From a virus, in IMG/VR virus record IMGVR_UViG_3300027896_000001, positions 32,001 through 96,000 of that record: a DNA stretch of 64,000 bases; one strand, given 5' to 3'. Position numbers and translations under genes: made by a program. Shown one piece after another: positions 41,755-62,456 of this stretch (position 1 is the first letter of the stretch; every line of letters begins with the position of its first letter). The notes beneath the pieces are model-generated. The model saw only the letters and a program-made list of their open reading frames with translations. It ran no database searches and was not told where the DNA came from.

Positions 41755-42388
41755 TGTTAAAAGGTTAATACAACTAAAATAGACAGCGAGAAGACGATCC
41801 GGCGAAGCACCTGAGCCAGTGCTGCTGACATCTCAAATCGAGTTGAAGCGCGCAGTGCCGACGACACGAGGCGACAGAAGTAATGAAAGAGTTCATGATA
41901 CGATGAGTTGGATGCGGGCAGGCTGAGCCGAAGGAGCAGCCGGACCTCAGACAGCTCATCGTGAAATGAACGATTTTCATTACTTCAAGACGAGTGCAGG
42001 TCGGAAAATCTTCAGCGAAGGATGACGCTGAAACACCTGAGCCCCTGACCGCATGGTCGAGGGGCCGAAGGCTTGTCTCATCTCCAGGCGCCCGCGAAGC
42101 GTGGCGAATATGGAGATGAGATGTTTTGAGGAATCCTGAAGCAATCGCGGGCTGGTGGCGCATAGCGGGAAGGGCTCGGGTCCGGCGCCTAGCGCCGGAT
42201 AAGAGCCCTGAAGCTCAATTGCGCCATCCAGAACGCGGTGGTGAAGATTTTAACGAGCACTTCGAATCGATCGATGTCAGCTGCTCTGGCGGTGGTGCTG
42301 GAGCCGTGTGAGGTGACGAGTGTGTTTTCTTTCGTCATTGATTGGCGAATCACCAACCTGGCAATAAACTTGTATTAACCTCTTAACA
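41755..42388 (-). ncRNA. Retron-like msr-msd unit A (about 630 nt, branched cargo)
   Basis: Terminal IR TGTTAA-A-AGGTTAATACAA (41755-41773) / TTGTATTAACCT-C-TTAACA (42370-42388). C at 41774 and 42369 gives G-G on the - strand. Hairpin GATTGG-CGAATCA-CCAACC at 42340-42358. Confidence 0.75.
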
Positions 42389-42395
42389 AATTTGA

Positions 42396-42656
42396 TAAAG
42401 TACAACTAAAAATGAATACGAGGGCGGGCTAGATTCTCCAGGAGGAGTAGCTGCAGTGCAGCATCAATCCGCCGACGCGGGGTCTGCACGTCGGGAAAAC
42501 AGACCAGTTTTACTGGTCTGATGAACCGACTGCACGACGCCGCGCTGGCGGAATTGATGCGAAACGCAGCGGAGCCTCCAGGAGAATAGGGCACGACGAG
42601 TTGTAATATTATTATCATCGATCGCCGAAACAGCGATCAAAAATGCTTGTACTTTA
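42396..42656 (-). ncRNA. Retron-like msr-msd unit B (rod-like cargo)
   Basis: IR TAAAGTACAA (42396-42405) / TTGTACTTTA (42647-42656). GATCGC-CGAAACA-GCGATC at 42620-42638. Long rod capped by AGACCAGT-TTT-ACTGGTCT. Confidence 0.78.
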
Positions 42657-43067
42657 GTTTGATGTTTCCACATTCAAAAAATAGTAACCGTTTTCCATTT
42701 TATCGCTTATCATTTCAGAAGCTAAACCAACTCCTGAACATGAGATGGTTCGAGATTCGGTATCAACAACAAACCTGATGCCTCGAAATGAAAAGTGTAA
42801 AAATTTATCAAGTTTGTCAGCCGCTTCCGCAGGAGTATTTTCTGTTTGTTTTGCAAAAGCAGCTTGCTTTTTTCTATCGATTATTTCGACATCTTTAGGT
42901 GTAAGAGCCACAATACATCCATCTGCATTTTTAGGTTCTCCCATATAATCATTACCTTCAAGTATGAATTTTTTAACATCTACACCTTCATTAAACGCGA
43001 CAACCGCGTGAAATGTAATTTTTGCGTTTACTTTTGTGCTTTTTTTTCTCTTCGGTTTTTCAAGCAA
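42654..43067 (-). CDS. Hypothetical protein embedded in the ncRNA array
   Basis: 137 aa, TTG start after AAGGAGG. Its stop codon overlaps the unit B arm. Confidence 0.65.
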   Translation of the reverse strand: MLEKPKRKKSTKVNAKITFHAVVAFNEGVDVKKFILEGNDYMGEPKNADGCIVALTPKDVEIIDRKKQAAFAKQTENTPAEAADKLDKFLHFSFRGIRFVVDTESRTISCSGVGLASEMISDKMENGYYFLNVETSN

Positions 43068-43096
43068 TTATTCCTCCTTGGTAAAAAAATATGAAA

Positions 43097-43116
43097 GGGG
43101 AGATTTTAATCTCCCC
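43097..43116. terminator. Hairpin between unit C and the 137-aa gene (terminator or processing site)
   Basis: GGGGAGAT-TTTA-ATCTCCCC, followed by a T-rich run on the - strand. Confidence 0.45.
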
Positions 43117-43123
43117 TCTCTGT

Positions 43124-43324
43124 TTGCAATATAACTTGATTGAACGTGATGATCTGCTACGGGCGAGCGACGGACCAGTATCCTTCCTAAGGATACCTGG
43201 TCCCGAGCGAGCCCGTTGCCAGATCAGAGCGGCTTCCTGCCCAATTGGGCAGGAATGGGCTTGTTTTGTGCTATTAGCACATACCAGGCGAAACACCTGG
43301 CGCCCTACTAAGCTTATATTGCAA
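43124..43324 (-). ncRNA. Retron-like msr-msd unit C
   Basis: IR TTGCAATATAA (43124-43134) / TTATATTGCAA (43314-43324). CCAGG-CGAAACA-CCTGG at 43284-43300. Cargo is a rod plus the palindrome TTCCTGCCCAATTGGGCAGGAA. Confidence 0.78.
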
Positions 43325-43335
43325 TTTTTTTATAT

Positions 43336-43610
43336 GAAATTAATACAACTAAATTCGATATTTTCTAGGGGTCATCAGGAGACTGTAGGGACCAAAAAGT
43401 CTGGTGCGCAATGCGGGCAGCAGAATTCTGACAGTCGTCACGTTCAGATTTCTCGTAGAGACATCGGAACGTGACAATCGTCAGAATTATGCTGACGACA
43501 TGGAGCACCAGACTGTTGGTCCGGGAAGGATCCTGATGACTGGGAGAAAATCCCATAGTTACTCTATAATGCTGTCGAAACAACAACGTAAAAAATCTTG
43601 TATTAATTTC
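43336..43610 (-). ncRNA. Retron-like msr-msd unit D (rod-like cargo)
   Basis: IR GAAATTAATACAA (43336-43348) / TTGTATTAATTTC (43598-43610). CGAAACA at 43576-43582. Rod GTCATCAGGA/TCCTGATGAC … CTC-GTA-GAG. Confidence 0.78.
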
Positions 43611-43611
43611 T

Positions 43612-44276
43612 AACAAATTTGCATAACTAAATTGAGCGGTAACTTCGATATGGAGAAAAAGGCTGGATATTTTACAAATTTCGCAAGGAACCGAATTGAA
43701 CGGCTTGACGGACGAAATTTGCCAGCTGGGTGGACCTGAGATCCGTTGAGTCGTGCCCATGAGGTGGGGAGCAAAAGGCCGAAGGCCTTGTGAGCCACCT
43801 TGATGGGCAAAGACTCAGAGGATCGGTGGTCCAAGAAGCTGGTAAATTTTGTCGACTAGCCGTTTCAGATTCCGAGAAATTTGTAAAATTGATGCCGGTT
43901 GGTCTTCTTACGCTGCGAGCGCAGTCCGAGGGCTTTTACAATTTCTTCTTCAGGCTGAACCTGAAGAAAAATTGTAAAAACGTAGGACAAGCGAGGGACG
44001 TAAGAAGATCAATTTTCGACATATCGAAAAGGACCGGGACATAGCCTTCGAGGATGAATCAACGCAAATTTTCGAGTACGAACGTTCAAGCGACGTTCCA
44101 GACAAAGCTCGAGAAGACCACTTCTCGAGCTCTGTCTGGAAAAGGAACTGAACGTCCGTGCGAAGTAAATTTGAATTGATTTATCCGGGTAAGAAGGCGT
44201 TCATTTATAACACTTATTCCTGAACGAAACATTCAGGTCGAGATCGGGGACCTCGAAAAAACTTATGCAAATTGTT
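43612..44276 (-). ncRNA. Retron-like msr-msd unit E (about 660 nt, three-armed cargo)
   Basis: IR AATTTGCATAA (43616-43626) / TTATGCAAATT (44263-44273). CCTGAA-CGAAACA-TTCAGG at 44219-44237 plus a second hairpin TCGAG…CTCGA. Confidence 0.78.
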
Positions 44277-44377
44277 TTAAACACAACGTTTGCGCTATGC
44301 TGACGTGCCGGTTCCTCCGGCATGTGGCTTTAGCCCTTGCAGCATGGCGCTGTTAGGTGCTGTAAAATTTGTTTCCA

Positions 44378-45160
44378 TTATTTGTTTTTGCGCCTCTTCA
44401 TTAATTTTTCTTTTTCGGCTGACGTGAGCGAACCCAGGTCGAGAGAGCCGCCAATCTCGGTGGGCAGTTTCAGCCCAGCGGCTGACGTGAGCGAACGCAG
44501 GTCGAGAGAGCCGCACTTTGTGGGCAGTTTCAGCCCAGCGGCTGACGTGAGCGAACCCAGGTCGAGATAGCCGTCAATCTCGGTGGGCAGTTTCAGCCCA
44601 GCGGCTGACGTGAGCGAACCCAGGTAGAGAGAGCCGCCAATCTCGGTGGGCAGTTTCAGCCCAGCGGCTGACGTGAGCGAACCCAGGTCGAGAGAGCCGC
44701 CAATCTCGGTGGGCAGTTTCAGCCCAGCGGCTGACGTGAGCGAACCCAGGTAGAGAGAGCCGCACTTTGTGGGCAGTTTCAACCCAGCGGCTGACGTGAG
44801 CGAACGCAGGTCGAGAGAGCCGCACTTTGTGGGCAGTTTCAGCCCAGCGGCTGACGTGAGCGAACCCAGGTCGAGAGAGCCGCTATATATTCCATTTTTG
44901 CACGTCTCGCCCATTGCCCAATTGAAAAACTCAACGAACGACGGATAATGATTTTTCAACCGCTCGTTACATTCCTGCTCAGTTATTTTATCAGTAGGGG
45001 CAACGCGGCAGACTATTTGTCCGCTCGGTAAATAGTGCCCTTCGCGCCATAGCTTTTCGTTCAACTCCAATTTCGCTTGCGTCTCGCTGTGCGATTCTAA
45101 ATTAAAAACCGCGACGTCCCCATTATCGGGGCGATGAAAAAAACTGATGAATTGGCACAT
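44378..45160 (-). CDS. Leucine-rich-repeat-like protein with about eight 20/21-aa repeats (GSLDLGSLTSAAGLKLPT[KC/EIG])
   Basis: ORF track; near-identical 60/63-nt tandem DNA repeats; AAAGGA RBS. Confidence 0.8.
   Translation of the reverse strand: MCQFISFFHRPDNGDVAVFNLESHSETQAKLELNEKLWREGHYLPSGQIVCRVAPTDKITEQECNERLKNHYPSFVEFFNWAMGETCKNGIYSGSLDLGSLTSAAGLKLPTKCGSLDLRSLTSAAGLKLPTKCGSLYLGSLTSAAGLKLPTEIGGSLDLGSLTSAAGLKLPTEIGGSLYLGSLTSAAGLKLPTEIDGYLDLGSLTSAAGLKLPTKCGSLDLRSLTSAAGLKLPTEIGGSLDLGSLTSAEKEKLMKRRKNK
44416..44883 (-). repeat. Coding tandem repeat, 60/63-nt period, about 8 copies
   Basis: GGCTGACGTGAGCGAAC[C/G]CAGGT[C/A]GAGAGAGCCG… recurs; lines 44461 and 44521 begin identically. Confidence 0.9.
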
Positions 45161-45227
45161 TGTATTTCCTTTCTTGTTTTAGGCGCAAAAACCTATTTAT
45201 ATTGCCTTGACAAATTTTATTGCATCC

Positions 45228-45392
45228 CAACTGAGATTTGATTCGTGATGGTTGCGCGAGTGGAGGTTGGTATAAAATACAACGTCTGCGTCGGTCGCAG
45301 AAGCGTTGTATTTTAGACCTACCGACTCGAGCCAACTATCGCGACCATTAACAATATAACAGCTCGGTCGAAACAACCGAATGAAACTTGTG
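45228..45392 (-). ncRNA. Retron-like msr-msd unit F (short, degenerate terminal IR)
   Basis: CAA-C-TGAGATTTG start, TCGGT-CGAAACA-ACCGA at 45364-45380, AAAC-TTG end. Rod GTGATGGTTG/CAACTATCGC and TAAAATACAACG/CGTTGTATTTTA. Only about 3-5 bp of closing stem. Confidence 0.6.
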
Positions 45393-45393
45393 T

Positions 45394-46512
45394 TTATTTT
45401 TCTTTCGGAACACCCTCTCCGAGCATTGTGTCGGCGGCTTTTTTGCCAAGGTTTTCCGGAATTATTGATTCTCCCTCAGGCCGCTCTACCACGTCTCCGG
45501 CAATATCCCCTTCGTCGGCATCAGGAGGAAACTGAACTGCGATATCTCTTTGCTCGTCGATATTTACTGGAACAGCCCCTTCAACATCAATAGCTTCTTC
45601 CATAGCGGATTTTGAAGCCTCAAGAAGTTTTGCACTTGCGTCTCCGAGTAAAGATACTGCGCCGGCTTCTCCTATCATTCTGGACTGTTTTGCTTTCGAT
45701 GCTAATCCTCTTTTTATCGGTTCCATTACAGAATCGATAAACTCTGGAGTCGGCATTATATCCGTAATGAACACATCACGGCCGCCTGACTTTACCTTAC
45801 GATGAATGAGGAATAGTTTTGCTCCAAACATCCCATCATAAGGAAGAGGTTTTCCCGCTTCAATTTGTTTTACCATGTGGGCTGCTCTTAGCAGCATTGT
45901 AAGATCTATAAATGCGGATTCGAATCCGACTATTGTGTTAATGCTACGAGTTTCAAATCTGTAAGGATTAGGAGCTAAATCAATAACAGGAAAGCATTTT
46001 AGCAATCCCATTTGTTTGCATTTTCCTGCTTTAAAATCAGGACATTCATGAAACAGACATCCGCTTTCGGGAAATCTTATTTCCCATTTGCGGTCTGTTG
46101 CCCCAACAATAAGTTGTTTTGCTTCGGTGCCTTTTCCGTGAGACTTGCACAGCAGGCCTTCACTAGAAGAATATTTTGCCAAATAACTTTCCCACATATC
46201 AGGAACTTCTTTGGCAAGACAGCATACCTCAACTCTTCTTGGTTGAGGACTTTTATTATTTGCTGATTCCAGCATTTTTTGAATAGGTTCATTTAAAACC
46301 CATTCTTTTACTGCTACAATTTTCTGTTCTCTCCCGATGCGTTGCGTCTTTACTATTTCTTTAAGCATTCTATAAAATCCACAAGCGACTGGAGAATTAA
46401 CAGTATTTGGCGGTTCAAGAGGCCCGTATCCAGTGGATATTTTTCCACGATATTTTGTTACCTTGGTGGGCTCTCCATTTTCATCATGAGTCATTCCTAC
46501 TATCAAGAGCAC
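45394..46512 (-). CDS. Gp3-like / recombination-directionality-factor-like protein
   Basis: RGKISTG at the N-terminus, C…ECP…KCK..G.L and YRFETRSINTI, matching the pattern I recall for this phage family. Confidence 0.55.
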   Translation of the reverse strand: MLLIVGMTHDENGEPTKVTKYRGKISTGYGPLEPPNTVNSPVACGFYRMLKEIVKTQRIGREQKIVAVKEWVLNEPIQKMLESANNKSPQPRRVEVCCLAKEVPDMWESYLAKYSSSEGLLCKSHGKGTEAKQLIVGATDRKWEIRFPESGCLFHECPDFKAGKCKQMGLLKCFPVIDLAPNPYRFETRSINTIVGFESAFIDLTMLLRAAHMVKQIEAGKPLPYDGMFGAKLFLIHRKVKSGGRDVFITDIMPTPEFIDSVMEPIKRGLASKAKQSRMIGEAGAVSLLGDASAKLLEASKSAMEEAIDVEGAVPVNIDEQRDIAVQFPPDADEGDIAGDVVERPEGESIIPENLGKKAADTMLGEGVPKEK

Positions 46513-61976: not shown

Positions 61977-62009
61977 AAAAAAAGCGCCTATAGAAAAGGC
62001 GCTTTTTTT
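61977..62009. terminator. Bidirectional intrinsic terminator
   Basis: AAAAAAAGCGCCT-ATAGAAA-AGGCGCTTTTTT between convergent genes. Confidence 0.8.
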
Positions 62010-62011
62010 AT

Positions 62012-62287
62012 TTATAAACGTCTCGCAAAAGCACGAAGTAACGCTTCGTTATTTAGGCATCCGCCGTGCTTTGCGTGTTGGTGGATGTGCCTGCCGACTC
62101 CTTGTTTTTTTTCAGCGGGCGCATCTTCAAATTCAAGAACTTCGCCGTCGAATATTGCATCTATAACTTGGTGCCAAACCTTTCGATCTTTCAGATAATT
62201 AAAATCCTCATCCGACGGCGAACTACCGCAATGGCCCGGGAATATGAATCCGCCGGTTTCGTCAATTTCAATATGATAACTTGGCAT
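62012..62287 (-). CDS. Hypothetical protein
   Basis: 91 aa with AAAGGA RBS. Confidence 0.6.
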   Translation of the reverse strand: MPSYHIEIDETGGFIFPGHCGSSPSDEDFNYLKDRKVWHQVIDAIFDGEVLEFEDAPAEKKQGVGRHIHQHAKHGGCLNNEALLRAFARRL

Positions 62288-62456
62288 ACTGTTCCTTTCT
62301 TGCGCCCGCCTACAATCTCGCTCTCGGCAGGCATTTACACCAACGTTCAGGCGAACGGCTGTACGTGGCGGTAGCGGGAGACGTAGGATTATCCCTACAA
62401 CGATCTATTACTACGTCCACATATCGTTGACTTACCGCCATGACAGCCTTTGCCTT

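What the first reader, a model, noticed from the sequence alone, without database searches (positions are those of the whole stretch)
41774..45345. Strand asymmetry indicates the cargo folds as + strand ssDNA while the small hairpin folds as - strand RNA
In the CGAAACA hairpins the non-Watson-Crick pairs are G-U only on the - strand (e.g. GGUUGGUG/CGCCAAUC in A, GUUGUUG/CGACAGC in D). In the cargo they are mostly G-T on the + strand: ACGATGAGTTG/CAGCTCATCGT (41900/41952), GACGAAATTTGCCAGCT/AGCTGGTAAATTTTGTC (43711/43837), GTGATGGTTG/CAACTATCGC (45245/45333). Cargo stems are often capped by C-GNA-G triloops: CGCGAAGCG 42093, GCCGAAGGC 42064, AAGGCCGAAGGCCTT 43775, CTCGTAGAG 43452. These are the well-known extra-stable DNA mini-hairpins. 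The alternative RNA cUUCGg register on the - strand would break these stems. This is what reverse transcription of the cargo predicts, and it is independent of the Eco1 resemblance. The bias is not absolute; a few A-C pairs exist.
Basis: partly seen in the sequence, partly recalled or inferred. Interest (0 to 1): 0.85.

Follow-up and report, generated by a model that had tools for sequence, protein, structure and literature searches.

The report
Phage retron-like ssDNA template array
A large freshwater phage carries six tandem non-coding cassettes built like the RNA of bacterial retron Ec86, plus a retron-type reverse transcriptase and RNase H elsewhere in its genome.

Summary
The hairpins and motifs are all at the stated coordinates. 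The small hairpin clearly folds on the - strand: 97% of cells pair across 35 copies, there is strong covariation, the non-Watson-Crick pairs are G-U, and a U-G/C-G pair closes a UUU triloop. This is the same UGUUUCG apex as retron Ec86 msr, which I verified on E. coli DNA.

The claimed G-T excess in the cargo is not significant (16 vs 11 in the window; 62 vs 51 in 32 units). Other + strand biases are real:
- G-A vs C-T mismatches are 16 vs 2.
- Unpaired bases are 69% purine, opposite to the local skew.
- C-GNA-G triloops are 7 vs 0 and about 7-fold over the genome background.
- All six cargos fold better in the + sense, but about half of that energy gap is due to base composition.

Independent support: an Ec86-like RT with an adjacent RNase HI lies 25 kb away and has its own cognate cassette and terminator. 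The RT clade and the cassette arrays recur in related 150-210 kb phages.

Best reading (about 0.65): these are - strand retron-like ncRNAs, copied in trans into + strand structured ssDNA. No cDNA or RNA data exist. This is a new variant of retrons. The scan's other notes concern this same genome, not other DNA.

The parts
41762..42381 (-). Unit A. On the - strand: a1 (AGGUUAAUACAA)-G, linker, small hairpin, ~570-nt branched cargo, UAG, a2.
   Evidence: Arms found as exact inverted repeats with flanking G. Folds give z -13.6 (+) and -15.0 (-). Cargo energy is -284.3 (+ sense) vs -246.9 (- sense) with RNA parameters.
42396..42656 (-). Unit B. Arms UAAAGUACAA / UUGUACUUUA; one long cargo hairpin.
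   Evidence: The arm sequence is shared with units in G004 and G007 while the cargo differs.
43124..43324 (-). Unit C. Arms UUGCAAUAUAA / UUAUAUUGCAA.
43336..43610 (-). Unit D. Arms GAAAUUAAUACAA / UUGUAUUAAUUUC.
43616..44273 (-). Unit E. Arms AAUUUGCAUAA / UUAUGCAAAUU; an extra 5' hairpin; three long cargo hairpins.
44278..45396 (-). Unit F. Arms UAAACACAA / UUGUGUUUA. It is interrupted by a ~950-bp insertion. Its own cargo lies at 45232-45350.
   Evidence: With the insertion removed the unit folds like the others. The insertion limits come from contigs of other runs.
42340..42358 (-). Small (msr-like) hairpin of unit A, loop UGAUUCG. The equivalent hairpins, all with loop UGUUUCG, are at 42620-42638 (B), 43283-43301 (C), 43570-43588 (D), 44219-44237 (E) and 45363-45381 (F).
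42093..42101 (+). C-GAA-G mini-hairpin CGCGAAGCG. Others are at 42064-42072 (competing fold), 43452-43460 (C-GTA-G) and 43775-43789 (6-bp stem, GAA loop).
43093..43120 (-). Terminator-like hairpin plus U run on the - strand, directly after unit C.
   Evidence: It supports - strand transcription of units F to C.
44285..45234 (-). Insertion inside unit F. It holds an ORF at 44378-45160 (260 aa; N-terminal domain plus 7.6 copies of a 63-bp, 21-aa leucine-rich repeat) and an 80-nt structured 3' piece at 44285-44364.
   Evidence: The same segment occurs with different flanks in contigs from three other studies.

Best explanation
The six units are retron-like non-coding RNA genes transcribed on the - strand together with the phage replication genes.

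Each RNA closes on itself through variable arms a1/a2, leaving two conserved G's facing each other. The G after a1 is the candidate branching (priming) G. A conserved small hairpin with apex Y-G-NUY-C-G is the handle recognised by the phage's Ec86-like reverse transcriptase, which is encoded 25 kb away and therefore acts in trans. The enzyme would copy the variable body starting next to a2. The phage's own RNase HI would then remove the template, releasing + strand single-stranded DNAs of about 100-600 nt.

These DNAs fold into long hairpins with G-A mismatches, purine-rich loops and some extra-stable C-GNA-G caps. The matching C-U mismatches weaken the template RNA hairpin. That would ease read-through and make the cDNA the better-folded strand.

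Shown: the anatomy, covariation, strand biases, RT/RNase H presence, and conservation across phages.
Inferred: trans use of the array by the RT, the branch point, the cDNA itself, and its role. My guess for the role is structured ssDNA that binds or decoys host or phage DNA-handling proteins during infection.
For: 1. Architecture. a1-G, small hairpin, long hairpins, G-a2 occur in all six units. The order is the same as in genuine Ec86 ncRNA, with the same G/G juxtaposition and the identical UGUUUCG apex.
2. Small hairpin. It has 97% pairing, a covariation score of 1.02 vs 0.25 in shuffles, and only G-U wobbles in the - sense.
3. RT. It is retron-type: PADLOC retron RT profiles at 4e-64, NCBIfam retron St85 at 2e-56 vs group II at 2e-15. 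The top PDB match is Ec86 RT at 5e-37, followed by other retron RTs. It is 25% identical to Ec86 RT over its full length. The NAxxH and YADD motifs are conserved. No group II intron RNA was found.
4. RNase HI lies next to the RT.
5. A cognate cassette with the same hairpin follows the operon and ends in a terminator. This recurs in at least 13 of 19 related loci.
6. Arrays lie behind the homologous flanking gene and are co-oriented with the local genes in G004, G005, G007 and L002.
7. Cargo stems keep 28-30 compensatory changes in three orthologous pairs.
8. + sense biases of the cargo run opposite to the regional skew.
9. DNA GNA/GNNA mini-hairpins are far more stable than their RNA versions: Tm 76.5 C vs 39 C for r(GCGAAAGC) (PMC13037366).
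Against: - No msDNA or transcript data exist. No RNA run was available.
- The array is 25 kb from the RT, whereas classical retrons have the ncRNA adjacent to it.
- G-T vs A-C counts are symmetric.
- About half of the energy gap is base composition.
- 8-9 of 32 cargos favour the RNA sense, including one unit of this same genome at about 144.8 kb.
- Some cargo pairs in the RT-cognate RNA are conserved G-U in the RNA sense.
- The Ec86 msd shows no asymmetry.
- The number of GNA loops is small (4 in the window's cargo).
- The RT scores below NCBIfam's retron cut-offs and has a 50-aa Cys-rich insertion absent from Ec86 RT.
Confidence: 0.65

Rival explanations
1. The units are - strand structured RNAs that function as RNA and are never reverse transcribed. 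Examples would be protein sponges, regulators or processing signals. Only the cassette next to the RT would be a true template. In this view the + strand biases reflect composition or constraints unrelated to cDNA.
For: - G-U and G-T wobbles are balanced.
- G-U pairs are conserved in the RNA sense in some cargo stems.
- Composition explains about half of the energy gap.
- The array lies far from the RT.
Against: - The array units carry the same handle, arms and G/G junction as the RT-cognate unit.
- Unpaired bases in the RNA sense are C/U-rich and G-poor (G 51 vs C 168). By my own knowledge of structured RNAs, that is unusual for a functional RNA.
- The mismatches are the least stable kind in the RNA sense, C-U in 16 of 18.
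- The triloops would be plain UUC loops in RNA.
Confidence: 0.17
2. These are DNA-level elements that work as + strand ssDNA exposed during replication or transcription, without any RT. Candidates are primase/ssi-type initiation signals, origin hairpins, or N4-style hairpin promoters with GNA triloops.
For: - The array sits in the replication module, among primase, helicase and exonuclease genes.
- GNA mini-hairpins are known at ssDNA priming sites and in N4 virion-RNAP promoters (PMC13037366).
- The + strand shows a purine and GNA bias.
Against: - This does not explain the - strand-specific small hairpin with G-U pairs and covariation, nor the a1/a2 closure with conserved G's.
- It does not explain the match to Ec86 msr or the cognate copy behind the RT.
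- Units also occur outside replication modules.
Confidence: 0.08
3. The units are + strand (antisense) transcripts that function as RNA.
For: The + sense folds are more stable under RNA parameters, and the loops are A/G-rich as in many RNAs.
Against: - The small hairpin would carry A-C mismatches in nearly every copy.
- Terminators lie on the - strand.
- Units are always co-oriented with neighbouring genes in five records.
- No excess of + strand promoter-like sites was found.
- GAA triloops are not notably stable in RNA.
Confidence: 0.05
4. The units are small non-autonomous mobile elements (MITE-like, IS200/IS605-like ends or integron attC-like sites) whose arms are terminal inverted repeats.
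For: - Each unit is bounded by inverted repeats.
- Units are tandem and occur at several genomic sites.
- One unit has been hit by an insertion at its arm boundary.
Against: - The interiors are all different and the arms differ between units, the opposite of transposon copies.
- The arms are conserved between phages at orthologous positions.
- No transposase or integrase was seen among the ten neighbouring proteins scanned.
Confidence: 0.03

Closest known systems
Retron Ec86 (Eco1, type II-A) of E. coli: msr-msd ncRNA + RT + effector
   Same: - The order a1-G, msr hairpins, msd hairpin, G-a2 is the same.
- The apical sequence UGUUUCG of the last msr hairpin is identical, folding as U-G, G-C and a UUU triloop.
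- The RT is the closest solved relative, with 25% identity.
- The predicted cDNA has an A-rich 5' leader.
- RNase H is needed for maturation (established retron biology, from my own knowledge).
   Different: - It is phage-encoded, in a 175-kb virulent-looking crAss-like genome.
- One RT serves at least 9 cassettes, six of them in an array 25 kb away.
- Cargos reach about 600 nt and are branched.
- The element brings its own RNase HI.
- No recognisable toxin or effector is present.
- The ncRNA lies downstream of the RT operon, not upstream.
- The RT has a Cys-rich insertion.
- The Ec86 msd shows no strand asymmetry.
Retron type XIII / III-A RT clades (Mestre et al. 2020, PMC7736814)
   Same: These are the best PADLOC profile hits for the RT.
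   Different: The partners that define type XIII (a winged-helix/SWIM protein and a HEAT-repeat protein) are absent. The neighbours here are RNase HI, an unassigned 389-aa protein and a 76-aa basic ORF.
Diversity-generating retroelements of phages (including crAss-like phages)
   Same: A phage-encoded RT copies a non-coding template RNA.
   Different: No template/variable repeat pair exists: the cargos have no second copy in this or related genomes. The RT profile is retron-type, not DGR-type.
DNA mini-hairpins d(GCGAAGC) at ssDNA priming sites and N4 virion-RNAP hairpin promoters
   Same: C-GNA-G triloops on short G-C stems occur on one strand only (PMC13037366).
   Different: Here they cap sub-stems inside much larger self-closed units that carry a retron-type RNA handle. 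No priming or promoter function has been shown.

Membership tests
Retron (msr-msd ncRNA with retron RT) | Inverted repeats a1/a2 close the ncRNA. | tested here: met
   Exact arms of 8-13 nt are present in all six units. They differ between units but always pair.
Retron (msr-msd ncRNA with retron RT) | A conserved G lies at the 3' end of a1 (the branching G), facing the first template position next to a2. | tested here: inconclusive
   All six window units read a1-(A)AG and (U)AG-a2, as Ec86 does. The 2'-5' branch itself cannot be seen in sequence. In the wider set, my scan required this G.
Retron (msr-msd ncRNA with retron RT) | msr stem-loop(s) recognised by the cognate RT lie 5' of the msd. 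| tested here: met
   The hairpin is conserved and covarying, with the same apex as Ec86 msr, and is present in the RT-adjacent cassette of at least 13 related loci. Binding by the RT was not tested.
Retron (msr-msd ncRNA with retron RT) | A long msd hairpin serves as template. | tested here: met
   Cargo folds have z -13 to -15. Orthologues keep compensatory changes.
Retron (msr-msd ncRNA with retron RT) | The RT belongs to the retron clade (NAxxH, YADD, region Y). | tested here: met
   Retron profiles far outscore group II and DRT profiles. The score is below NCBIfam's family cut-offs, so this is a distinct clade.
Retron (msr-msd ncRNA with retron RT) | The ncRNA gene is contiguous with the RT gene. 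| tested here: not met
   Only one cassette is adjacent, and it lies downstream of the operon. The six in the window are about 25 kb away.
Retron (msr-msd ncRNA with retron RT) | Production of msDNA (a branched RNA-DNA molecule). | not testable with these tools
   Only assembled DNA contigs of metagenomes were available.
Retron (msr-msd ncRNA with retron RT) | An associated effector or toxin (tripartite defence system). | tested here: not met
   No PADLOC or Pfam effector lies next to the RT. The neighbours are RNase HI and two unassigned ORFs.
DNA mini-hairpin d(C-GNA-G) | A G-C closed triloop with G at position 1 and A at position 3, on a stem of at least 2-3 bp. | tested here: met
   Present at 42093, 43452 and 43775, with 42064 as a competing fold. 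All are on the + strand and none on the - strand. Folding as DNA in vivo was not tested.

The most novel reading that the evidence does not exclude
A widespread clade of 150-210 kb environmental phages uses one Ec86-like reverse transcriptase plus its own RNase HI in trans. Together they would convert arrays of up to nine different ncRNA cassettes into a repertoire of long, highly structured, nuclease-resistant single-stranded DNAs made during infection. This would be a viral, effector-less, multi-template retron whose products act as DNA aptamers or decoys (or as replication factors) rather than as a host abortive-infection sensor.
Probability: 0.5. Interest if true: 0.9.

Novelty: new variant of a known kind. 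Interest (0 to 1): 0.78.

Why it matters
Retrons are known as bacterial anti-phage systems with one RT, one adjacent ncRNA and a toxin.

This would instead be a virus-owned version. It has one RT, its own RNase H, no toxin, and many exchangeable templates that share a 19-nt handle and self-closing arms.

If the cDNAs exist, three consequences follow:
- Phages would deliberately manufacture structured ssDNA, which opens a new class of phage effectors.
- Natural msDNA length and complexity would extend well beyond what is known.
- The system would provide a naturally modular, trans-acting, multiplexed retron scaffold for genome engineering.

The strand-bias analysis also shows which sequence signals discriminate the two strands (G-A mismatches, loop purines, GNA caps) and which do not (G-T counts).

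Tried and rejected
- Rfam: no family at gathering score anywhere in the window. Only chance-level hits in the array at E up to 10, and no msr (RF00170) hit. No group II intron RNA near the RT.
- tRNA scan: none.
- Phage database: no DNA match by blastn or megablast.
- Sequencing runs: no RNA holder listed. Only Logan contigs of DNA runs could be laid, so nothing can be said on expression, RNA ends or cDNA.
- G-T vs A-C excess in the cargo: tested three ways and not significant.
- Cargo as copies of genomic targets (DGR-like or donor-like): no match of 17 nt or more elsewhere in this genome or four related genomes, apart from the conserved RT-cognate segment.
- Cargo orthology: arms align between phages but the cargos mostly do not, so covariation could be counted in only three pairs.
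- Coding potential: ORFs overlapping the cargos have no Pfam hit.
- RT co-occurrence in the L002 record: no RT found, but that record is a 65%-complete fragment, so this is uninformative. A sister contig from the same sample as L003 carries the RT.
- The 389-aa protein upstream of the RT: only a weak PDB hit to a DHH-family phosphodiesterase (E 0.13), so I did not adopt it.
- Ec86 msd as a positive control for asymmetry: it is symmetric, so asymmetry is not a general retron signature.
- Literature: six searches found retron-like RTs noted in viral metagenomes (PMC13681634) but no description of phage ncRNA arrays.


Full report
WHAT IS THERE

The window is bases 32001-96000 of a 174,649-bp virus record with direct terminal repeats, from a freshwater metagenome. 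Gene content is crAss-like: giant ORFs of more than 2000 aa, a primase-helicase, an SNF2 helicase and an exonuclease.

Between the - strand replication genes, at 41762-45396, lie six GC-rich units in an otherwise roughly 33% GC region. Read on the - strand, each unit has these parts in order:
- an arm, a1;
- a conserved (A)AG;
- a short U-rich linker;
- a small hairpin whose 7-nt apex is UGUUUCG (UGAUUCG in unit A);
- one to three long imperfect hairpins (100-600 nt);
- (U)AG;
- an arm, a2, complementary to a1.

The arms differ between units but always pair, leaving G opposite G. Unit F is split by a roughly 950-bp insertion. A terminator-like hairpin with a U run follows unit C on the - strand. 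ORFs overlapping the cargos have no family match. Rfam and tRNA scans are empty.

About 25 kb away, outside the window, the genome encodes a 356-aa reverse transcriptase followed directly by RNase HI. Its properties are as follows.
- It matches retron RT profiles (PADLOC 4e-64; NCBIfam retron St85 2e-56) far better than group II (2e-15) or DRT profiles.
- A profile built from its clade finds retron Ec86 RT as the best solved relative (5e-37), then other retron RTs. Group II RTs come only at 1e-12 or worse.
- It is 25% identical to Ec86 RT end to end and has a roughly 50-aa Cys-rich insertion.
- No group II intron RNA is nearby.

Directly after the operon sits a seventh cassette with the same small hairpin (UGUUCCG) and self-closing arms, followed by a terminator. 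At least 13 of 19 related RT loci in IMG/VR have the same arrangement. In an alignment of eight of them the small hairpin covaries at five pairs, and its only non-Watson-Crick pairs are G-U in this sense.

I recalled the Ec86 msr sequence and checked it. It matches 48 E. coli genomes at 100%, next to the retron St85-family effector and RT genes. The real Ec86 ncRNA folds as a1-G, hairpin 1, hairpin 2 with apex UGUUUCG (U-G, G-C, UUU triloop), msd hairpin, G-a2. That is the layout of the phage units, so the 'Eco1 resemblance' is real.

The RT clade is large: 2803 homologues at E below 1e-20, many on 120-208 kb contigs. In four complete related phages and one fragment, cassettes with this handle sit behind the homologue of the window's gene 45394-46512 and at other sites. 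They are always co-oriented with the local genes. Arm sequences are conserved at orthologous positions, but the cargos are mostly unalignable. This genome has at least nine cassettes: six here, one at the RT, and two near 144.4-144.8 kb.

TESTING THE STRAND-ASYMMETRY CLAIM

I assembled 32 units (6 from the window, 26 from this genome and relatives). I compared the RNA sense (window - strand) with the cDNA sense (window + strand).

1. Small hairpin. In 35 copies, 97.1% of cells pair (shuffles 60.5%). The covariation score is 1.02 vs 0.25, and 6 of 8 pairs change on both sides. The apex pair is U-G in 23 and C-G in 11, and the next pair, G-C, is invariant. The RNA sense is more stable in 29-30 of 30 informative units, and never the reverse. 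However, the six window copies were defined beforehand and show the same pattern. This part of the claim is confirmed.

2. G-T vs A-C in cargo stems. I used only interior positions flanked by Watson-Crick pairs in the union of both strands' MFE structures. The window gives 16 G-T vs 11 A-C (p 0.44), and all 32 units give 62 vs 51 (p 0.35). With DNA-parameter structures the counts are 9 vs 6 and 22 vs 25. In three orthologous pairs the consensus folds hold 31 wobbles in the RNA sense and 21 in the cDNA sense. This part is not confirmed.

3. Other mismatches. G-A/A-G vs C-T/T-C (cDNA sense) is 16 vs 2 in the window (p 0.001) and 31 vs 9 overall (p 0.0007). Purine-purine vs pyrimidine-pyrimidine is 49 vs 22.

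4. Unpaired bases of the cargo, in the cDNA sense. The window has A 225, G 168, T 127, C 51, which is 69% purine. The other 26 units are 58% purine, and both are highly significant. This skew is opposite to that of the surrounding - strand genes, so it is not a regional mutational bias.

5. Loops. C-GNA-G triloops number 3 in the window and 4 in relatives in the cDNA sense, and 0 in the RNA sense, among 29 triloops. Loops that start with G and end with A number 19 vs 7. As a plain motif with a stem of at least 3 bp, the array holds 5 on + (4 in cargo) and 0 on -. That is 1.37/kb against 0.18/kb and 0.13/kb genome-wide, and three more sit on the same strand in the 144.7-kb unit. The numbers are small but consistent. 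DNA mini-hairpins of this type melt at 76.5 C, against 39 C for r(GCGAAAGC) (PMC13037366).

6. Energies. The cDNA sense is more stable in all six window cargos. Overall it wins in 22 of 31 informative units (RNA parameters, Wilcoxon 0.005) and 24 of 32 (DNA parameters, 0.0002). Dinucleotide shuffles of the six cargos keep about half of the gap: DNA -47.8 observed vs -24.7 +/- 4.5, and RNA -93.8 vs -61.9 +/- 12.5. So there is an excess beyond composition, and it is clearer with DNA parameters.

7. Counter-examples. One unit of this same genome favours the RNA sense by 14 kcal/mol. The RT-cognate RNA has conserved G-U pairs inside its 3' hairpins. The Ec86 msd is symmetric.

INTERPRETATION

The handle and arms are RNA-sense structures, while the cargo is biased toward a better fold on the complementary strand. 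Combined with a retron-type RT, an adjacent RNase HI and a cognate cassette, the simplest reading is this: - strand ncRNAs are copied in trans into + strand ssDNA, and RNase H frees that ssDNA to fold.

The mismatch pattern suggests a functional logic. C-U mismatches weaken the template RNA hairpin, while the complementary G-A mismatches and GNA caps stabilise the cDNA. That logic is an inference. Cargo stems are under selection, with 28-30 compensatory changes in three pairs. The cargos are not copies of anything else in these genomes. That argues against a DGR-like or donor-template role, and for a role of the folded molecule itself.

Rival readings, scored in the rivals section, are:
- RNA-only function;
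- RT-independent + strand ssDNA signals (priming sites, N4-type hairpin promoters);
- + strand transcripts;
- mobile elements.

The first two cannot be excluded without wet data.

NOVELTY

Retron-like RTs in viral metagenomes have been noted (PMC13681634), and retrons in prophages are known (PMC8867640). Six literature searches found no description of a phage-owned RT/RNase H pair serving arrays of different retron-type cassettes. The system fails two retron criteria, ncRNA adjacency and an effector. I therefore call it a new variant of a known kind, not a member of any described type.

VERDICT

The G-T argument should be dropped in favour of the G-A, purine and GNA signals. The underlying system is of high interest.

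Noticed in passing
window 44285-45234: Unit F is interrupted, right after its a2-side motif AAACACAAC, by a ~950-bp segment. The segment holds a 260-aa ORF (N-terminal domain plus 7.6 copies of a 63-bp, 21-aa leucine-rich repeat GSLDLGSLTSAAGLKLPTEIG) and an 80-nt structured 3' piece. The same segment, at 91-100% identity, occurs with different flanks in contigs from three other studies (viral, sediment/soil and pond metagenomes). It therefore looks like a mobile or shuffled gene cassette.
   Followed up: partly
L001:270-520 (- strand), i.e. G000:C1 about 100548-100798: A seventh cassette lies directly behind the operon of 389-aa ORF, RT, RNase HI and 76-aa basic ORF. It is followed by a terminator whose loop carries CGACC. 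A 12-nt block CCCCGACCCCAG in its 3' part is invariant across eight related phages.
   Followed up: partly
G000:C1 about 144150-144900 (- strand), outside the window: Two more cassettes carry the same handle (loops UGUUCCG and UGAUUCG). One is 441 nt and holds three C-GNA-G motifs on the + strand, yet its cargo as a whole favours the RNA sense.
   Followed up: partly
L001:1240-2310 (-), residues about 117-168 of the RT: The phage RT clade has a roughly 50-aa insertion with five invariant cysteines (C126, C129, C140, C156, C168) that is absent from Ec86 RT. It may be a zinc-binding module.
   Followed up: no
window 41762-45396 compared with L002:9090-11216, G004 113.9-115.1 kb and G007 63.4-64.4 kb: Arm (a1/a2) sequences are conserved between phages at orthologous positions while the cargos are unalignable. 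The matches are E with L002 unit 1, A/D with L002 unit 4, B with G004_113930 and G007_64379, and F with G005_104698. It looks as if the cargos are swapped or evolve very fast inside a fixed frame.
   Followed up: partly
window 61990-62420 (+ strand): This GC-richer intergenic stretch has a hairpin AAGUAA-CGCUUCG-UUAUUU and possible 7-nt closing arms with flanking G's. It may be a further cassette, co-oriented with the + strand genes there. The fold is only modestly better than shuffles (z -3.3), and the MFE does not pair the arms.
   Followed up: partly
L011:5063-5127: In one related phage a tRNA gene lies just downstream of the RT-cognate cassette.
   Followed up: no
L001:2279-3448 (-): The 389-aa protein upstream of the RT has no Pfam, PHROG or PADLOC family. 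Its only PDB hit is weak (E 0.13), to the DHH-family phosphodiesterase PggH.
   Followed up: partly
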